A stretch of DNA of 64,000 nucleotides from Escherichia phage PMBT16, in the sequence record PP554575, one strand, 5' to 3'. How positions within the stretch are numbered: the first letter of the stretch is position 1; every line of letters starts with the position of its first letter. The notes under the pieces are model-generated. The model was given only the letters and a program-made list of their open reading frames with translations, made no database searches and was not told the origin of the DNA. Below, piece by piece: positions 28,864-36,276 of this stretch. The translations under genes were made by a program, and so were the position numbers.

Positions 28864-29076
28864 TCATAGTCTACCACCCCTGAACTCTTCGTGCTCAGGC
28901 ATAATAGAGAACCAGATGTCTACGATGTCCTCCCACGTCAGGTCATCAGCCTCAGGGTCTACCTGGTACGGAGATGGAGAATCTTCAGAATCGAAGTTTT
29001 CCTCTTTCCCCGGCTCGGCCAAGGGACAGATGGTCACTCCTTCGGATGTCTCTTCAGATGCATGTGTGTTGATCAT
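28864..29076 (-). CDS. hypothetical small acidic protein (70 aa)
   Basis: ORF track; GGTGGA RBS. Confidence 0.55.
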   Translation of the reverse strand: MINTHASEETSEGVTICPLAEPGKEENFDSEDSPSPYQVDPEADDLTWEDIVDIWFSIMPEHEEFRGGRL

Positions 29077-29174
29077 GTTCCACCCGTGAGTATTCCGGCA
29101 ACAGCCGCTATGGACGTAATGATCATCAGGATCACCACTAAAACTTCGGACAATGTTCTCATTGTGTACTCCAT
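29073..29174 (-). CDS. small hydrophobic peptide (33 aa)
   Basis: ATG just downstream of minus-strand promoter; TM-like LVVILMIITSIAAVAGIL; no clear RBS. Confidence 0.3.
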   Translation of the reverse strand: MEYTMRTLSEVLVVILMIITSIAAVAGILTGGT

Positions 29175-29194
29175 ATTCTACAAACTATGTGTGG

Positions 29195-29223
29195 ATACTA
29201 TCACTGGATCGGTAATGTGTCAA
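29195..29223 (-). promoter_or_regulatory. sigma70-like promoter (TTGACA-N17-TAGTAT) on minus strand
   Basis: Consensus hexamers read on reverse complement. Confidence 0.55.
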
Positions 29224-29381
29224 CAGAAACGCCGCGAGGGTTTGGTTAAAATCCGAGCGTATGGTGATTTGGGTCAAAACGAACGTGCGTTCTCGCTACG
29301 CTCGAAATATGGAGTTGTTTGTAGGGAGCTCTTAAACGCTCTGTAATGAGATTAACTACCCAAGGTATGCAATCGTGCACC

Positions 29382-29411
29382 AGATAAAGAAAAGGACGCC
29401 ACAGAGCGTCC
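29382..29411 (-). terminator. rho-independent terminator on minus strand (GGACGC-TCTGTG-GCGTCC + TTTTCTTTATCT)
   Basis: 6-bp stem followed by T-run in minus-strand sense, after gene ending at 29437. Confidence 0.6.
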
Positions 29412-29436
29412 TAGGTGTCTTAAATTTGATATTTTG

Positions 29437-29736
29437 CTATACCCACGAGGGCTTATCAAGGTTGGAGTAGCTGAAAGGTGTCAAAAGGTGACTGTCAAAA
29501 TCTCTCAAACTATCCAAATCTTTTTCCTCGTCCTGACACCATCTGTGCCTACATTTGTTGTTGTAGTGCATGGAATGCATAGCGTTCTGCAACTTAACAG
29601 GCACAAGTGATTCAGGAGTAGATAGTATTGTTGGGTATGCCAGAACCACCTCAAACAGTGGAAACACATCGAAACTAAAGTCTACCTCTGCAGAGGTTGA
29701 TGGCATATAGGAGTATTTAGCCGCCTTTGTAGACAT
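29437..29736 (-). CDS. hypothetical protein (99 aa)
   Basis: ATG with GAGGTGG RBS; track start is GTG four codons upstream. Confidence 0.55.
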   Translation of the reverse strand: MSTKAAKYSYMPSTSAEVDFSFDVFPLFEVVLAYPTILSTPESLVPVKLQNAMHSMHYNNKCRHRWCQDEEKDLDSLRDFDSHLLTPFSYSNLDKPSWV

Positions 29737-29744
29737 AATCCACC

Positions 29745-30122
29745 TCACACAGGTTTGATAATACCTTCACCGAATAACTCTTCATATCTAATCTTATCCG
29801 GATCCCACTCCTGGATAATTTCGAAGACAATATCCAACCCAGGAATAATCACTTCTCCAGTGTCAAGTTTGGCAAGAACAAAACCAGAAGGCTGAATGGT
29901 TTCCCAGTTGCGACGATTGGAATAGAAGACCTCGAAAATATCACCGACCTTGATCTGTTGATCAAGATGTTCAAGATTCTCTTTCATATAGACGCAGCGG
30001 ATTTTTCGTGCAGGCCATAGACCACCTGCATCACGTTCATTTAGCTCTTTCACAGTGATTGGCATTCTCATAGCTGGTTCCTTTTGCAAATAGTGAAAGA
30101 GGGGCCGTAGCCCCTCTGCCAT
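29745..30122 (-). CDS. hypothetical protein (125 aa)
   Basis: ORF track; gene-train context. Confidence 0.6.
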   Translation of the reverse strand: MAEGLRPLFHYLQKEPAMRMPITVKELNERDAGGLWPARKIRCVYMKENLEHLDQQIKVGDIFEVFYSNRRNWETIQPSGFVLAKLDTGEVIIPGLDIVFEIIQEWDPDKIRYEELFGEGIIKPV

Positions 30123-30123
30123 A

Positions 30124-30429
30124 TTATTCTACAGAGCGTTTGAACAGAATGTCTGCCTCAGACATGTGCTCAACCTCTTCTTCAATCTTAGCGCGACGTT
30201 TTTCAGCTTCGTAGCGGATATCAAACTCTGTAGCCACCAAAGATTTGATGAATTTAGGAGAATACAGATGATCCTGCTTCTCAACAAGAATGATATCCTT
30301 GATGGCATCTTTCAAATCTTTAATCTGAAGCTGGAGTTCCACCAGTTCTTCAATTGTTTTGCGAAGGCGATCACGTTCTGCAGTGTCAGAAGGAAGAGAG
30401 GTGAACAGTTCAACTTTAGATTTAGCCAT
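30124..30429 (-). CDS. hypothetical protein (101 aa), coiled-coil-like
   Basis: ORF track. Confidence 0.6.
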   Translation of the reverse strand: MAKSKVELFTSLPSDTAERDRLRKTIEELVELQLQIKDLKDAIKDIILVEKQDHLYSPKFIKSLVATEFDIRYEAEKRRAKIEEEVEHMSEADILFKRSVE

Positions 30430-34333: not shown

Positions 34334-34415
34334 AACGTGTTCCTTTTAAAGAAGAGGGAACCAAACCCTCTTTGAAAACAATGATACTAAATCTGAAGCG
34401 TTGTGTCAACAGTTT

Positions 34416-34706
34416 TTACAGATTGTTGTCGATAGTTTTTAAAATATCCACAGCAAGATCTGCCATTTTTCGAACATACTCTGCAAACTCAACAGGATCC
34501 TTGATCAAAGAATTCACAGGGTCGTACCCTAGAGCGTTCAAAATGGCTGCAGCATCTACAACCTTCTCATCATTTGCGAAGATCTCTCCATCAAACTTGT
34601 AGGTCCATTTTGAGTCAATCTTGGCAGGGAATGATTGGTCAACGCTTGTTACACCATCCTTTTTAAACGCTCCGGTGTTATCAGTGTCTAGAACTAAATC
34701 CATCAT
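34416..34706 (-). CDS. hypothetical protein (96 aa)
   Basis: ORF track. Confidence 0.6.
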   Translation of the reverse strand: MMDLVLDTDNTGAFKKDGVTSVDQSFPAKIDSKWTYKFDGEIFANDEKVVDAAAILNALGYDPVNSLIKDPVEFAEYVRKMADLAVDILKTIDNNL

Positions 34707-34723
34707 GTTAGTACCTCACCGTT

Positions 34724-35122
34724 TCAGTTTAGCTTTTCTTCAACAACCCCATAGCTCGGGACAGAGTCAAGAGCTTTCTGGTTTAAAAGTGGTGTAGCAG
34801 AATCTGCAAACGGTGTCCAAGTTTTTGTTCTGGCATTCCAGTAATGCTTCACTCTGGAATCTGGATGCACTATAACAAAAACTTTTTCACTTGTCAACAC
34901 ATTAATTTCTTCTACACCCTTGCTGATAATTTCTCCGTCATAGCCACCAGTCTGGTATCCTTCGTACCAGGTTCTTGCATATGCATAGCCAGCCTGCCAG
35001 CATGCAGCCTCCTCCGAGGTGGAGACTACGTAGAAGTCTTTCTCAAATTCTGGGATACGCCCTTGCTTTACGCTCCAAGCTCCGCGAATTTTCATTGTAA
35101 CTTTGAACAGTTTATTTTTCAC
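34724..35122 (-). CDS. hypothetical protein (132 aa), paralog of 32522-32917
   Basis: ORF track; shared motif with 32522-32917. Confidence 0.6.
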   Translation of the reverse strand: MKNKLFKVTMKIRGAWSVKQGRIPEFEKDFYVVSTSEEAACWQAGYAYARTWYEGYQTGGYDGEIISKGVEEINVLTSEKVFVIVHPDSRVKHYWNARTKTWTPFADSATPLLNQKALDSVPSYGVVEEKLN

Positions 35123-35134
35123 AACGGTTACCCA

Positions 35135-35389
35135 TCACAGCTCTACAATCTCTGCATCTGACCCTGCCCCAAAGGCATAATAGGATTCTTCCCCGAAATA
35201 ATATTCCGGTGCACCAGCAGCGATCAGGTCTGATCCCAAGATAAACACCACGTTGTGGCCTACATAACTGTGATGTTGCCGCACAGGATCATCCCACGGC
35301 AACCCTTCAAAGTATACCGCAGGAACGACCTTTCCCTTCAGGAAGGATTGTCCCAAGTAGACGTTAGAATCAAGAATTTTAACCTTCAT
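35135..35389 (-). CDS. hypothetical small acidic protein, DL(I/L)AAGA family (84 aa)
   Basis: ORF track; paralogous to 35379-35606 and 39017-39250. Confidence 0.6.
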   Translation of the reverse strand: MKVKILDSNVYLGQSFLKGKVVPAVYFEGLPWDDPVRQHHSYVGHNVVFILGSDLIAAGAPEYYFGEESYYAFGAGSDAEIVEL

Positions 35390-35606
35390 TCTCGTCCTCC
35401 ACTATCTCTACATCCTCACCAAGGGCAAAGTTGTAGGTCCACTGGCTGTCAAAGCAGTCCTGAGATGCACCAGCGGAAATAAGATCTGCACCTTTTATTT
35501 TTAAAAGGTCAGGATAATCTTCGTTAGGGATAGCGGTAAACACTTTCCCCACTAAGGGCTCCTGACCAATATAGAAGCTTGAATCTAAAACTTTAACTTT
35601 CATCAA
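35379..35606 (-). CDS. hypothetical small acidic protein, DL(I/L)AAGA family (75 aa)
   Basis: ORF track; GAGGGA RBS. Confidence 0.6.
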   Translation of the reverse strand: MMKVKVLDSSFYIGQEPLVGKVFTAIPNEDYPDLLKIKGADLISAGASQDCFDSQWTYNFALGEDVEIVEDENEG

Positions 35607-35890
35607 CGGTCTCCCTCAGGCGGTTGTGGGACGTAAACACTGTTACGAATATCGTCAGCAGTGTAGTAATAAGTGGTTCCAACCCTATCTCGGGCTGCAA
35701 TGTACTCTGCTATACCAATAAGTGCCATTGATTTGGTGGCGTATCTTCCCCACTCGTTAGCTCCCCAGTAGAATTTAGACCAGTAGGGAATAATACCGAA
35801 CAAATATACCTTTTGACGAACTTCCCAGTAAGTGCCTTTTCCGACAAGTTTAAACTCTACTTCACTACTGTTAATCTTTTTCATTATCAA
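35603..35890 (-). CDS. hypothetical protein (95 aa)
   Basis: ORF track. Confidence 0.55.
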   Translation of the reverse strand: MIMKKINSSEVEFKLVGKGTYWEVRQKVYLFGIIPYWSKFYWGANEWGRYATKSMALIGIAEYIAARDRVGTTYYYTADDIRNSVYVPQPPEGDR

Positions 35891-36183
35891 TCTCCCTCTA
35901 CCGTGGTCGGATTGTCAGTAAGAAATTGAGCATTGGCTGGAGGCACGCCTGACATTTTCCACACAACCATAAGTTTGTAACCAGGAACTCTATTAAGTGC
36001 AGATCGAGTAGAGTTTGTGCACGTATACTTTCGCTTTCCAAACCCGTTCTCCATCATAATCCAGTACCCAGTATCTTTGTCACCAGGTATCGGTAGACCA
36101 CCTTCATCAACCCACTGAATGGACCACGGCACGATGGCTACAGCTTTATATTTAAACTTTTTAAACCACTCAAAAAGTTTCAT
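35887..36183 (-). CDS. hypothetical protein (98 aa)
   Basis: ORF track; GAGG RBS. Confidence 0.55.
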   Translation of the reverse strand: MKLFEWFKKFKYKAVAIVPWSIQWVDEGGLPIPGDKDTGYWIMMENGFGKRKYTCTNSTRSALNRVPGYKLMVVWKMSGVPPANAQFLTDNPTTVEGD

Positions 36184-36186
36184 AAT

Positions 36187-36276
36187 TCAGCCTCGCATAG
36201 ACATAATCACTATAAACAGGCAAACAATGAATCCGAATGCCACGCCACCCATAAACGTTAATATTGATGCAATCAT
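36187..36276 (-). CDS. small hydrophobic peptide (29 aa)
   Basis: Stop overlaps next gene RBS; TM-like; weak RBS. Confidence 0.3.
   Translation of the reverse strand: MIASILTFMGGVAFGFIVCLFIVIMSMRG

What the first reader, a model, noticed from the sequence alone, without database searches (positions are those of the whole stretch)
29073..36276. Recurring tiny hydrophobic peptide genes wedged between larger genes
Short ORFs of 27-44 codons encoding single-TM-like peptides occur repeatedly, often translationally coupled to neighbours: minus strand 29073-29174, 31138-31221, 33905-34006, 36187-36276; plus strand 17769-17888, 21496-21621, 21605-21724, 24162-24266, 24871-25005. The recurrence argues against chance; candidates include membrane-depolarising toxins, holin-like lysis timers or superinfection-exclusion peptides.
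Basis: partly seen in the sequence, partly recalled or inferred. Interest (0 to 1): 0.5.

Follow-up and report, generated by a model that had tools for sequence, protein, structure and literature searches.

The report
Small membrane-peptide genes in rV5-like phage
The tiny hydrophobic ORFs are real, conserved genes for single-helix membrane micro-proteins in the accessory early-gene blocks of an rV5-like E. coli phage; most were already annotated, a published transposon screen shows they are dispensable on a laboratory host, and their functions are still unknown.

Summary
The window is an rV5-like Vequintavirus (98.5% identical to phage WalterGehring). All nine ORFs exist as described and each has one strongly hydrophobic helix. 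They are not chance ORFs. Across 10-17 relatives the reading frames stay intact. Pooled substitutions give omega ~0.33 in the proposed frame (p=2e-14) against ~0.9-1.05 in the other two frames. Hydrophobic mini-ORFs are enriched in coding-strand gaps (9/41, against 0/26 on the opposite strand).

They are not a gene family and match no holin, type I toxin or defence family. Five were labelled 'membrane protein, 1 TMD' in the 2013 rV5 paper, six have their own PHROG family, and seven are deposited as hypothetical proteins. Published transposon data (HIDEN-SEQ, phage Bas54) show the orthologs are dispensable on E. coli K-12.

The recurrence reflects the general rule that very small proteins are often single transmembrane helices. 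The likely mode of action, helix-helix modulation of membrane proteins, is an inference.

New details:
- 31138-31221 is a genus-wide gene that is not annotated.
- 21496-21621 is a probable overlapping gene under an annotated CDS.
- 36187-36276 is a 96-bp present/absent cassette bounded by a 10-bp repeat and shared with E. coli prophages.

The parts
29073..29174 (-). p29073, a 33-codon ORF; the likely product is 29 aa starting at Met5 (MRTLSEVLVVILMIITSIAAVAGILTGGT). It overlaps the start of the downstream gene by 4 nt.
   Evidence: Intact in 15 of 17 relatives, with omega ~0.35 and p=7e-4. Matches phrog_34195 at E=4e-21 from residue 5. Annotated as bas51_0137 and Murica147. A near-consensus sigma70-type promoter lies at 29223-29195. 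The Bas54 ortholog bas54_0138 had 5 of 5 TA sites hit by the transposon.
31138..31221 (-). p31138, 27 aa (MINLAKVATALLIICWSVTLTLCLVFQ). It has an ATGA overlap with the upstream gene, a 9-nt gap to the downstream gene, and an AGAGG SD sequence. It is not annotated.
   Evidence: Intact in 14 of 14 relatives, with omega ~0.33 and p=0.025. tblastn finds it in 117 Vequintavirus records at 85% identity or more over the full length. No CDS is called for it in the six records whose annotation tables were read, and rV5 (NC_011041) and ECML-10 list no feature under the match. The exact peptide is absent from the 15-billion-protein collection.
33905..34006 (-). p33905, 33 aa, lying 9 nt downstream of the HPF/S30AE ribosome-hibernation gene (34016-34333). 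Two invariant glutamates lie at the N-terminal end of the hydrophobic stretch.
   Evidence: This is rV5 gp145, 'membrane protein, 1 TMD'. Matches phrog_15151 at E=4e-26. Found in 117 records, all at 90% identity or more. Intact in 15 of 15 relatives; omega ~0.37 from few substitutions, p=0.065. bas54_0154 had 10 of 10 TA sites hit and is classed non-essential. The neighbouring gene matches PF02482.
36187..36276 (-). p36187, 29 aa (MIASILTFMGGVAFGFIVCLFIVIMSMRG). It is the coding part of a 96-bp cassette that is present in some phages and absent in others.
   Evidence: Present in 10 of the 14 relatives compared and precisely absent in Murica, C9 and YP-6; also missing from the divergent IMG/VR contig, whose junction differs. 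Annotated as bas51_0161. A homolog at 88.6% nucleotide identity lies in E. coli prophages, in 10 of 5426 complete genomes. There are too few substitutions for a selection test.
36283..36292 (-). Upstream copy of the 10-bp direct repeat GCGAGGCTGA, inside the last codons of gene 36279-36539.
   Evidence: This is one of only two copies in the window, exactly 96 bp from the other. Phages that lack the cassette keep a single copy.
36187..36196 (-). Downstream copy of the 10-bp direct repeat. It forms the last codons and stop of p36187 and supplies the GAGG SD sequence 7 nt before the ATG of gene 35887-36183.
17769..17888 (+). p17769, 39 aa, a stand-alone gene with an AAGGAGG SD sequence. A perfect sigma70-type consensus promoter follows it at 17889-17916.
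   Evidence: This is rV5 gp193, 'membrane protein, 1 TMD'. Matches phrog_16391 at E=5e-32. Omega ~0.15, p=3e-6. bas54_0107 had 6 of 6 TA sites hit and is classed non-essential. Promoter.
21496..21621 (+). p21496, 41 aa: a transmembrane helix followed by a charged tail (RRKGGDDDTQG). It is a probable overlapping gene in the +1 frame of ORF A and overlaps p21605 by 17 nt.
   Evidence: The 41-aa frame is kept in 12 of 13 relatives. In the overlap, omega is 0.53 (p=0.052) for this frame and 0.86 for frame A, and the tail of frame A varies in length between 73 and 81 aa. The transmembrane part is found in 117 records. It is not annotated and the exact peptide is not in the protein collection. There is a weak PHROG holin match at E=0.066.
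21363..21608 (+). ORF A (rV5 gp182, bas54_0116). Only its first ~44 codons show protein-level constraint.
   Evidence: Omega is 0.26 (p=6e-5) for 21366-21495 and 0.86 in the part that overlaps p21496.
21605..21724 (+). p21605, 39 aa: a basic N-terminus and a transmembrane helix with two invariant glutamates. It has an ATGA overlap with ORF A and is followed by an intrinsic terminator at 21729-21748.
   Evidence: This is rV5 gp181, 'membrane protein, 1 TMD'. Matches phrog_13629 at E=9e-31. Omega ~0.18, p=3e-6, with an in-frame 3-nt indel in two relatives. Restricted to Vequintavirus, 119 records. bas54_0117 had 11 of 11 TA sites hit and is classed non-essential. Terminator.
21015..21385 (+). 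Neighbouring 123-aa protein with two transmembrane helices (rV5 gp183; called 'putative holin' in BASEL records). It is the first gene of the membrane-protein cluster 21015-21724.
   Evidence: Sequence. Matches phrog_13090, unknown function. bas54_0115 had 27 of 28 TA sites hit and is classed non-essential.
24162..24266 (+). p24162, 34 aa, the first gene behind a sigma70-like promoter (24082-24109) and 10 nt upstream of the next gene.
   Evidence: This is rV5 gp173. Matches phrog_14631 at E=8e-22. Two allele classes exist with dS saturated at 1.5-2.2 and dN/dS of 0.16-0.26. An unannotated copy, 94% identical in amino acids, lies in phAPEC8. bas54_0125 had 7 of 9 TA sites hit and is classed 'reduced fitness'.
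24871..25005 (+). p24871, 44 aa, lying 2 nt after the upstream stop and 12 nt before the next gene. It is present in some phages and absent in others.
   Evidence: This is rV5 gp170, 'membrane protein, 1 TMD'. Matches phrog_16005 at E=1e-25. Found in 163 records across Vequintavirus and Phapecoctavirus. dN/dS falls to 0.17-0.34 against divergent copies, and a 50%-identical copy is intact. Cleanly absent in Murica and MiataMamis. bas54_0128 had 8 of 9 TA sites hit and is classed non-essential.
37996..38115 (-). The likely product is 35 aa (MFIEMLSGILLLVAILGGAVLMYNYLEKGDSNGKK).
   Evidence: Found in the gap-ORF scan. This is rV5 gp131, 'membrane protein, 1 TMD'. bas54_0162 had 10 of 11 TA sites hit and is classed non-essential.
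30696..30836 (-).
   Evidence: This is rV5 gp156, 'membrane protein, 1 TMD'. Sequence. bas54_0144 had 9 of 12 TA sites hit and is classed 'intermediate'.

Best explanation
These are real but mutually unrelated protein-coding genes. Each encodes a 27-44-residue protein that is essentially one transmembrane helix with short flanks.

Shown:
- The genes lie in the two divergently transcribed arrays of small accessory genes, full of sigma70-type promoters, that flank the ~2-kb non-coding centre of an rV5-like Vequintavirus genome.
- Most are translated as part of operons through tight or overlapping junctions with their neighbours.
- They are under purifying selection at the amino-acid level.
- They are dispensable for lytic growth on E. 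coli K-12 (published data on a close relative).
- Several are gained and lost as whole mini-genes, and some are shared with another phage subfamily or with E. coli prophages.

Inferred:
- The peptides insert into the host inner membrane.
- They have no room for a catalytic or soluble domain, so each probably works through helix-helix contacts with a different host or phage membrane protein, tuning transport, signalling, envelope or defence functions in particular hosts. This is how bacterial small membrane proteins such as MgrB, AcrZ and MgtS act.
- The recurrence is not a dedicated system. It reflects the general over-representation of single transmembrane helices among very small proteins.
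For: Identity of the genome: 98.5% identical to phage WalterGehring.

ORF integrity and selection:
- Reading frames are intact in nearly all of 10-17 relatives.
- Pooled counts are 95 synonymous and 100 nonsynonymous changes, omega ~0.33, p=2e-14 in the proposed frame. The two control frames give 0.89 and 1.05.
- dN/dS is 0.16-0.34 against divergent alleles whose synonymous sites are saturated.
- One in-frame indel was seen, and hydrophobic character is kept at 50% identity.

Enrichment: 9 of 41 coding-strand gap ORFs are hydrophobic against 0 of 26 on the opposite strand and a 5.3% background.

Previous annotation: six have their own PHROG families, rV5 Table S3 lists 'membrane protein, 1 TMD' entries, and seven of nine exact peptides are deposited.

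Gene context: near-consensus sigma70 promoters occur on the coding strands only, and the junctions are tight.

Accessory nature: HIDEN-SEQ on Bas54 classes bas54_0107, 0116, 0117, 0128 and 0154 as non-essential and 0125 as reduced fitness, with 5 of 5 sites hit in 0138. p36187 and p24871 are present in some phages and absent in others. Copies occur in Phapecoctavirus and in E. coli prophages.

General rule and mode of action of small membrane proteins: review PMC12648545.

Not paralogs of one another.
Against: There is no direct evidence of translation or membrane insertion for any of them; the rV5 mass spectrometry covered virions only.

Selection evidence is weak for three ORFs taken singly:
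- 33905 has p=0.065.
- 36187 has only five substitutions.
- 21496 has omega 0.53-0.62 with p=0.05-0.15.

The mechanism (helix-helix modulation of membrane proteins) is an analogy; no target is known. The only sign of a host-specific role is depletion of a whole contiguous block (bas54_0123-0129) in one clinical isolate. That could be a polar effect of transposon insertion, and it is not significant after correction for the two tiny genes themselves.
Confidence: 0.6

Rival explanations
1. They are superinfection-exclusion or injection-blocking peptides. Made early, they would sit in the inner membrane and stop DNA entry by later-arriving phages, as T4 Imm and Sp do.
For: The genes sit in early-type arrays with sigma70 promoters. 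The products are predicted membrane peptides. They are dispensable in single-phage growth on K-12, as expected for exclusion genes. The T4 precedent is from general knowledge.
Against: No PHROG, Pfam or NCBIfam hit points to any exclusion family. Known exclusion proteins are larger, about 80-200 aa (from general knowledge). Nine or more different exclusion peptides in one genome would be excessive. No exclusion assay exists.
Confidence: 0.12
2. They are lysis regulators (holin, antiholin or lysis-timing peptides), at least the cluster 21015-21724 and p36187.
For: p21496 and p21605 follow a protein with two transmembrane helices that BASEL annotators call 'putative holin', and the cluster ends in a terminator. 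p21496 has a transmembrane helix plus a charged C-terminus and a weak match to holin PHROG 263 at E=0.066. The prophage copy of p36187 lies just after a holin-lysozyme-Rz cassette.
Against: The endolysin is at 61506-61976, 25 kb or more away, and the spanins sit at the terminase operon in Bas54. The 'putative holin' ortholog and the peptides all tolerate insertions: bas54_0115 with 27 of 28 sites hit, 0116 with 14 of 15, and 0117 with 11 of 11. The promoters are of the host sigma70 type typical of early genes. No significant holin family match was found. The rV5 authors proposed a different protein, gp129, as the holin.
Confidence: 0.1
3. They are membrane-depolarising toxins of the type I toxin-antitoxin kind (like TisB, Hok or Ldr), used to shut down or kill the host.
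For: Size and hydrophobicity resemble type I toxins (review PMC12648545).
Against: No match was found to any NCBIfam or Pfam toxin family. No Rfam antitoxin RNA, or any other RNA family, occurs in the window. No strong antisense promoters were found; the only opposite-strand matches are 9 of 12, which is at chance level. Seven of nine are coupled inside operons rather than forming stand-alone loci with long leader sequences. Early depolarisation would starve the phage's own replication (inference).
Confidence: 0.1
4. The ORFs are translated only as couplers or spacers that pass ribosomes to the downstream gene, and the peptide itself has no function.
For: Seven of nine abut or overlap neighbouring genes. 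The p36187 cassette carries the SD sequence of the next gene in its last codons.
Against: Constraint acts at the amino-acid level: omega is ~0.15-0.37 in the proposed frame only. Length and hydrophobic character are kept across alleles whose synonymous sites are saturated. Glutamates and C-terminal motifs are invariant. Downstream genes remain coupled in phages that lack p36187 or p24871.
Confidence: 0.05
5. They are chance ORFs in intergenic DNA, called as genes only by permissive gene finders.
For: Short ORFs are abundant, 319 of at least 25 codons in 25 kb. At least one record (MiataMamis) calls many tiny CDS even in the ORF-free central region.
Against: Synonymous changes are in excess only in the proposed frame (p=2e-14), whereas control frames are neutral and accumulate stop-creating changes. 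The enrichment is specific to the coding strand. Five of the peptides searched are each conserved across 117 or more records.
Confidence: 0.03

Closest known systems
Phage rV5 gp145, gp170, gp173, gp181 and gp193, annotated 'membrane protein, 1 TMD' (Kropinski et al. 2013, PMC3606486, Table S3), and their PHROG families 15151, 16005, 14631, 13629, 16391 and 34195
   Same: These are direct orthologs of 33905, 24871, 24162, 21605 and 17769, with the same sizes, positions and neighbouring genes. PHROG 34195 corresponds to 29073.
   Different: 31138 and 21496 have no counterpart in that annotation or in PHROGs, and 36187 is not called in rV5. Nothing functional is known for any of them.
Bacterial small membrane proteins that regulate larger membrane proteins (MgrB-PhoQ, AcrZ-AcrB, MgtS-MgtA, CydX, KdpF; review PMC12648545)
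   Same: They are under 50 aa, consist of a single helix with short flanks, have no catalytic domain, and evolve with hydrophobicity conserved more than exact sequence.
   Different: There is no sequence relationship. The present genes are encoded by a phage and no target has been identified, so the resemblance concerns the likely mode of action, not family membership.
Type I toxins (TisB, Hok/Gef, Ldr, Ibs, ShoB)
   Same: They are similar in size and hydrophobicity.
   Different: There is no family match, no antisense RNA partner and no stand-alone locus; the phage genes are coupled inside operons.
Phage T4 early membrane proteins for exclusion and lysis inhibition (Imm, Sp, RI), and holins in general
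   Same: They are phage-encoded membrane proteins in non-essential early regions.
   Different: The T4 proteins are 80-100 aa or longer and have extramembrane domains. There is no homology, and the present genes are not next to lysis genes.
'Morons', the accessory gene cassettes of phage mosaicism (Hendrix and colleagues; from general knowledge)
   Same: p36187 and p24871 are discrete units present in some phages and absent in others. p36187 is shared between virulent phages and prophages, and p24162 and p24871 are shared with another subfamily.
   Different: Classical morons carry their own promoter and terminator. The 96-bp p36187 cassette has neither; it is bounded by a 10-bp repeat that keeps the SD sequence of the next gene in place.

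Membership tests
Small single-pass membrane proteins (50 aa or fewer) | Length of 50 residues or fewer | tested here: met
   The products are 27-44 aa.
Small single-pass membrane proteins (50 aa or fewer) | One hydrophobic helix long enough to span a bilayer, with short flanks | tested here: met
   The best 17-residue window has hydropathy 2.1-2.95 in every peptide, with 0-1 charged residues in the core. This rests on a hydropathy scale only; no dedicated topology predictor was available.
Small single-pass membrane proteins (50 aa or fewer) | A genuine protein-coding gene, shown by selection on the encoded sequence | tested here: met
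   Pooled omega is 0.33 (p=2e-14), with control frames neutral. Individually significant for 29073, 31138, 17769, 21605 and 24162. 24871 is supported by divergent copies. Evidence is weak for 33905, 36187 and 21496.
Small single-pass membrane proteins (50 aa or fewer) | Translated and located in the membrane | not testable with these tools
   No ribosome profiling or fractionation data were found for any Vequintavirus.
Holins | Significant match to a holin family | tested here: not met
   Pfam gave no match. In PHROGs the only match is p21496 to phrog_263 at E=0.066.
Holins | Located in a lysis cassette or next to the endolysin | tested here: not met
   The endolysin is at 61506-61976, and the nearest candidate is 25 kb away. 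Only the prophage copy of p36187 lies after a lysis cassette.
Holins | Required for host lysis or plaque formation | tested here: not met
   Published transposon data for the Bas54 orthologs show all of them tolerate insertions on K-12. This rests on the literature, not on an experiment done here, and it does not exclude a non-essential role in lysis timing.
Type I toxin-antitoxin toxins | Match to a known toxin family (Hok, Ldr, TisB, Ibs, ShoB and others) | tested here: not met
   NCBIfam and Pfam gave no match.
Type I toxin-antitoxin toxins | A partner antisense RNA antitoxin | tested here: not met
   No Rfam family occurs in the window. The only opposite-strand promoter matches are at chance level, 9 of 12. 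A novel RNA cannot be excluded.
Type I toxin-antitoxin toxins | Toxicity or depolarisation on expression | not testable with these tools
   This needs an induction experiment.
Superinfection-exclusion proteins (T4 Imm/Sp type) | Homology to a known exclusion protein | tested here: not met
   All significant PHROG hits are to families of unknown function.
Superinfection-exclusion proteins (T4 Imm/Sp type) | Exclusion phenotype | not testable with these tools
   This needs a superinfection assay.
One paralogous peptide family within the genome | Detectable similarity between the peptides | tested here: not met
   In all-against-all BLASTP the best match is E=0.03 over 13 hydrophobic residues.
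Anti-phage defence components (PADLOC) | Match to a defence-system protein model | tested here: not met
   No hits were found.

The most novel reading that the evidence does not exclude
Micro-genes such as p36187 may spread and disappear as self-contained translational cassettes. The unit is a 96-bp block holding a 29-codon transmembrane ORF whose last 10 bp duplicate the SD-containing sequence at the insertion point. Gain or loss by recombination at this microhomology therefore leaves the downstream gene's ribosome-binding site and coupling intact. The same cassette, with the same kind of duplicated junction, occurs in E. coli prophages next to another tiny transmembrane ORF. If this is general, it would be a mechanism by which virulent and temperate phages exchange and stack very small membrane-protein genes inside operons without promoters or terminators of their own. 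Separately, p21496 would be an unrecognised overlapping gene hidden under an annotated CDS in every Vequintavirus.
Probability: 0.3. Interest if true: 0.45.

Novelty: already known. Interest (0 to 1): 0.25.

Why it matters
Small membrane proteins are a large, mostly uncharacterised part of phage 'dark matter', and rV5-like phages are used in phage-therapy and typing collections.

This work gives a vetted list of at least 11 conserved single-helix micro-proteins in one genome. It includes one unannotated gene and one probable hidden gene, with their natural presence/absence variants and published knock-out phenotypes. Such a list is a practical starting point for target-finding experiments.

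It does not open a new question. The phenomenon, and most of these genes, were already on record.

Tried and rejected
- IMG/VR scans anchored on the HPF gene and on the 207-aa gene gave only 2 and 8 loci, mostly distant. Relatives were therefore taken from GenBank phage records.
- A first pairwise dN/dS pass was spoiled by non-homologous or gapped rows and returned zeros for several ORFs. It was redone with column-wise counts and codon alignments.
- Pfam, NCBIfam, PADLOC and Rfam searches gave nothing significant.
- The idea that the peptides are paralogs was rejected.
- The Fremin et al. 2022 paper on small phage genes is not held in the library. The CRISPRi-ART paper mentions EdH4 but gives nothing on these genes.
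- I first read the repeat flanking p36187 as 'R-G-stop' in both genes. Checking the frames showed that in the phage the upstream gene reads it in another frame (corrected in the notebook).
- A programmed +1 frameshift joining ORF A to p21496 at the TTTT run near 21486 was considered. It was not pursued because the next codon is not a slow or stop codon and p21496 has its own ATG. It remains possible.
- Structure prediction was not run. A single helix would carry no functional information.
- The large protein-database searches were not used, because tblastn against 50,697 phage records and the exact-sequence look-up answered the distribution question.

Full report
**What the window is.** The region matches rV5-like Escherichia phages (genus Vequintavirus) over its whole length; the best hit is phage WalterGehring at 98.5% identity. 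The finding lies in two arrays of mostly small genes. One is on the + strand (about 14.8-26.3 kb) and the other on the - strand (about 28.5-40 kb). They are transcribed divergently from an ORF-free stretch of about 2 kb. The rV5 genome paper already describes '88 mainly small ORFs' here, a stretch with no ORFs, and promoters of the host sigma70 type. My scan found many near-consensus sigma70-type promoters, all on the coding strand of each block. The endolysin is far away at 61506-61976.

**Checking the observation.** All nine ORFs exist with ATG starts and encode 27-44 residues with one strongly hydrophobic stretch. Seven of nine abut or overlap a neighbouring gene, so the remark about translational coupling is fair. 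Two details needed correction. The ORF at 21496 is not in a gap: it lies in the +1 frame inside the tail of ORF 21363-21608. The ORF at 29073 probably starts at its fifth codon.

**Is it more than chance?** Two independent tests say yes.
- Composition: in the gaps left by larger genes, 9 of 41 coding-strand ORFs of 20-54 aa are hydrophobic. On the opposite strand of the same gaps the count is 0 of 26, and among all six-frame ORFs of 25-50 aa it is 5.3% (binomial p=2.5e-4, Fisher p=0.008).
- Evolution: I extracted the orthologous stretches from 10-17 relatives at 80-99% identity. The frames are intact almost everywhere. Each distinct substitution was counted once per alignment column. The proposed frames have 95 synonymous and 100 nonsynonymous changes (omega ~0.33, p=2e-14). 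The two alternative frames of the same DNA give omega 0.89 and 1.05 and collect stop-creating changes.

Five ORFs are significant on their own: 29073, 31138, 17769, 21605 and 24162. For 24871 the close relatives give omega near 1. Against divergent copies, however, dN/dS is 0.34 with phAPEC8 and 0.17 with a 50%-identical copy that is still intact. The ORF at 24162 has two allele classes whose synonymous sites are saturated, yet both keep 34 codons, and dN/dS is 0.16-0.26. The evidence is thin for 33905 (few substitutions, but invariant across 117 phages), 36187 (five substitutions) and 21496.

**The 21363-21724 stretch.** A frame-resolved count shows that frame A (the annotated 73/81-aa protein) is constrained only in its first ~44 codons (omega 0.26, p=6e-5). 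Where it overlaps the hydrophobic ORF, frame A is neutral (0.86) and its stop position varies, while the hydrophobic frame has omega 0.53 (p=0.052) and keeps 41 codons in 12 of 13 phages. Further on, the p21605 frame takes over (omega 0.18). The simplest reading is a real overlapping gene, p21496, that no examined record annotates. The exact peptide is in no public protein set.

**What was already known.** The rV5 supplementary table lists gp145 (33 aa, next to the sigma54-modulation/HPF gene), gp170 (44 aa), gp173, gp181 (39 aa) and gp193 (39 aa) as 'membrane protein, 1 TMD'. Six of the nine peptides have their own PHROG families of unknown function, and seven exact sequences are deposited as hypothetical proteins. 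The ORF at 31138 is the exception. It is conserved at full length in 117 Vequintavirus records. No CDS is called for it in the six records whose annotation tables I read, and rV5 itself and ECML-10 list no feature under the match.

**What they are not.**
- They are not paralogs of each other.
- They match no Pfam, NCBIfam or PADLOC family, and so no holin, type I toxin or defence family.
- No Rfam RNA family, antitoxin RNAs included, occurs anywhere in the window.

**Experimental evidence from the literature.** A 2025 preprint (HIDEN-SEQ, doi 10.1101/2025.11.20.689424) mapped transposon insertions in Bas54 (phage MaxBurger), a close relative. On E. coli K-12 the orthologs tolerate insertions:

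| Window ORF | Bas54 gene | TA sites hit | Class |
|---|---|---|---|
| 17769 | bas54_0107 | 6/6 | non-essential |
| ORF A with 21496 | bas54_0116 | 14/15 | non-essential |
| 21605 | bas54_0117 | 11/11 | non-essential |
| 24162 | bas54_0125 | 7/9 | reduced fitness |
| 24871 | bas54_0128 | 8/9 | non-essential |
| 29073 | bas54_0138 | 5/5 | too few sites to classify |
| 33905 | bas54_0154 | 10/10 | non-essential |
| 'putative holin' (21015-21385) | bas54_0115 | 27/28 | non-essential |

In one clinical-isolate comparison the contiguous block bas54_0123-0129, which contains the 24162 and 24871 orthologs, is depleted about five-fold. The block-wide pattern may be a polar effect of insertion, and the two tiny genes are not significant after correction (q=0.24 and 0.095). 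The sheet is titled CFE303, but its command line names sample 311.

**Gain, loss and exchange.**
- 24871 is cleanly absent in two phages. Together with 24162 and their neighbours it is shared with Phapecoctavirus phages of another subfamily; in phAPEC8 the 24162 copy is unannotated.
- 36187 is a 96-bp insertion/deletion bounded by the only two copies in the window of the 10-bp repeat GCGAGGCTGA (36283-36292 and 36187-36196). Phages without the gene keep one copy, so the GAGG SD sequence 7 nt before the downstream ATG is preserved in both states.
- An 88.6%-identical copy of 36187 lies in E. coli prophages (10 of 5426 complete genomes). It sits after the holin-lysozyme-Rz genes, is flanked on both sides by CGAGGCTGATTATG, and is followed by another tiny transmembrane ORF.

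**Most likely explanation.**
- Shown: these are real, constrained, operon-embedded genes that are dispensable on K-12 and encode single-helix peptides.
- Inferred: the peptides insert into the inner membrane. Each is little more than one helix, so each probably acts through contacts with a different membrane protein, as bacterial small membrane proteins do (review PMC12648545). Any benefit is probably host-specific.
- The invariant glutamates in p21605 and p33905 suggest specific polar contacts rather than generic membrane filling, but this is only a hint.
- Rivals: superinfection exclusion, lysis timing and depolarising toxins remain possible for individual peptides. Lysis and toxin roles are disfavoured by gene context, lack of family matches and the transposon data.

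**Verdict.** The modest new points are the unannotated 31138 gene, the probable hidden 21496 gene and the 36187 cassette.

Noticed in passing
window 36187-36292 (- strand); L025 6015-6104: The 29-codon gene p36187 is a 96-bp insertion/deletion bounded by the only two copies in the window of the 10-bp repeat GCGAGGCTGA. Phages that lack it keep one copy, and with it the GAGG SD sequence of the downstream gene. An 88.6%-identical copy with duplicated CGAGGCTGATTATG junctions lies in E. coli prophages after the lysis cassette, followed by another tiny transmembrane ORF.
   Followed up: partly
window 21363-21621 (+ strand): The annotated 73/81-aa protein (rV5 gp182) is constrained only in its first ~44 codons. 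Its tail evolves neutrally and varies in length, while the overlapping +1-frame hydrophobic ORF (21496-21621) is the better conserved frame. This is probably an unannotated overlapping gene. A +1 frameshift fusion was not excluded.
   Followed up: partly
window 31138-31221 (- strand): This 27-codon transmembrane ORF has an ATGA overlap with the upstream gene and its own SD sequence. It is conserved at full length in 117 Vequintavirus records, yet no CDS is called for it in the six annotation tables read, and rV5 and ECML-10 show no feature under the match. The exact peptide is absent from the large public protein collection.
   Followed up: yes
window ~26300-28500: This ORF-free stretch of about 2 kb lies between the two divergent gene blocks. 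It has no tRNA and no Rfam family. The motif ATAGTTGCC(Y)TG is iterated in direct and inverted orientation around 26665-26856, with other short repeats nearby. The HIDEN-SEQ preprint reports no transposon insertions in the equivalent Bas54 region, which suggests an essential cis-acting element such as a replication origin.
   Followed up: partly
   Followed up: partly
window 21605-21724 and 33905-34006: Both peptides carry two invariant glutamates five residues apart, within or at the N-terminal edge of the hydrophobic helix, in a similar local pattern (LEIIALEIL and VEIACFEIM). This is unusual for transmembrane segments and suggests specific polar contacts. It could equally be coincidence.
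   Followed up: no
window 23900-25300; L024 (phAPEC8) 2403-4298: This gene module, which includes p24162 and p24871, is shared at about 84% nucleotide identity with Phapecoctavirus phages (subfamily Stephanstirmvirinae). p24162 exists as two very divergent allele classes within Vequintavirus. In Bas54 the corresponding block bas54_0123-0129 is depleted about five-fold in one clinical E. coli isolate.
   Followed up: partly
GenBank records MG0656xx (loci L016, L017, L018, L021): About 18-23 records named 'Campylobacter phage', flagged UNVERIFIED with host Campylobacter jejuni, are 92-98% identical to E. coli rV5-like phages across this region. The host assignment looks doubtful.
   Followed up: no
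HIDEN-SEQ preprint, Extended Data Table 8, sheet Data S6: The sheet is titled resampling_K-12_vs_CFE303, but its command line names the 311 sample, the same as sheet S7. Which host gave the depletion of the 0123-0129 block is therefore uncertain.
   Followed up: no
window 34016-34333 (- strand): The phage encodes a ribosome-hibernation (S30AE/HPF) homolog (PF02482, E=2e-12). The 33-aa membrane peptide gene follows it after 9 nt in all 117 relatives. Both genes are non-essential in Bas54.
   Followed up: partly
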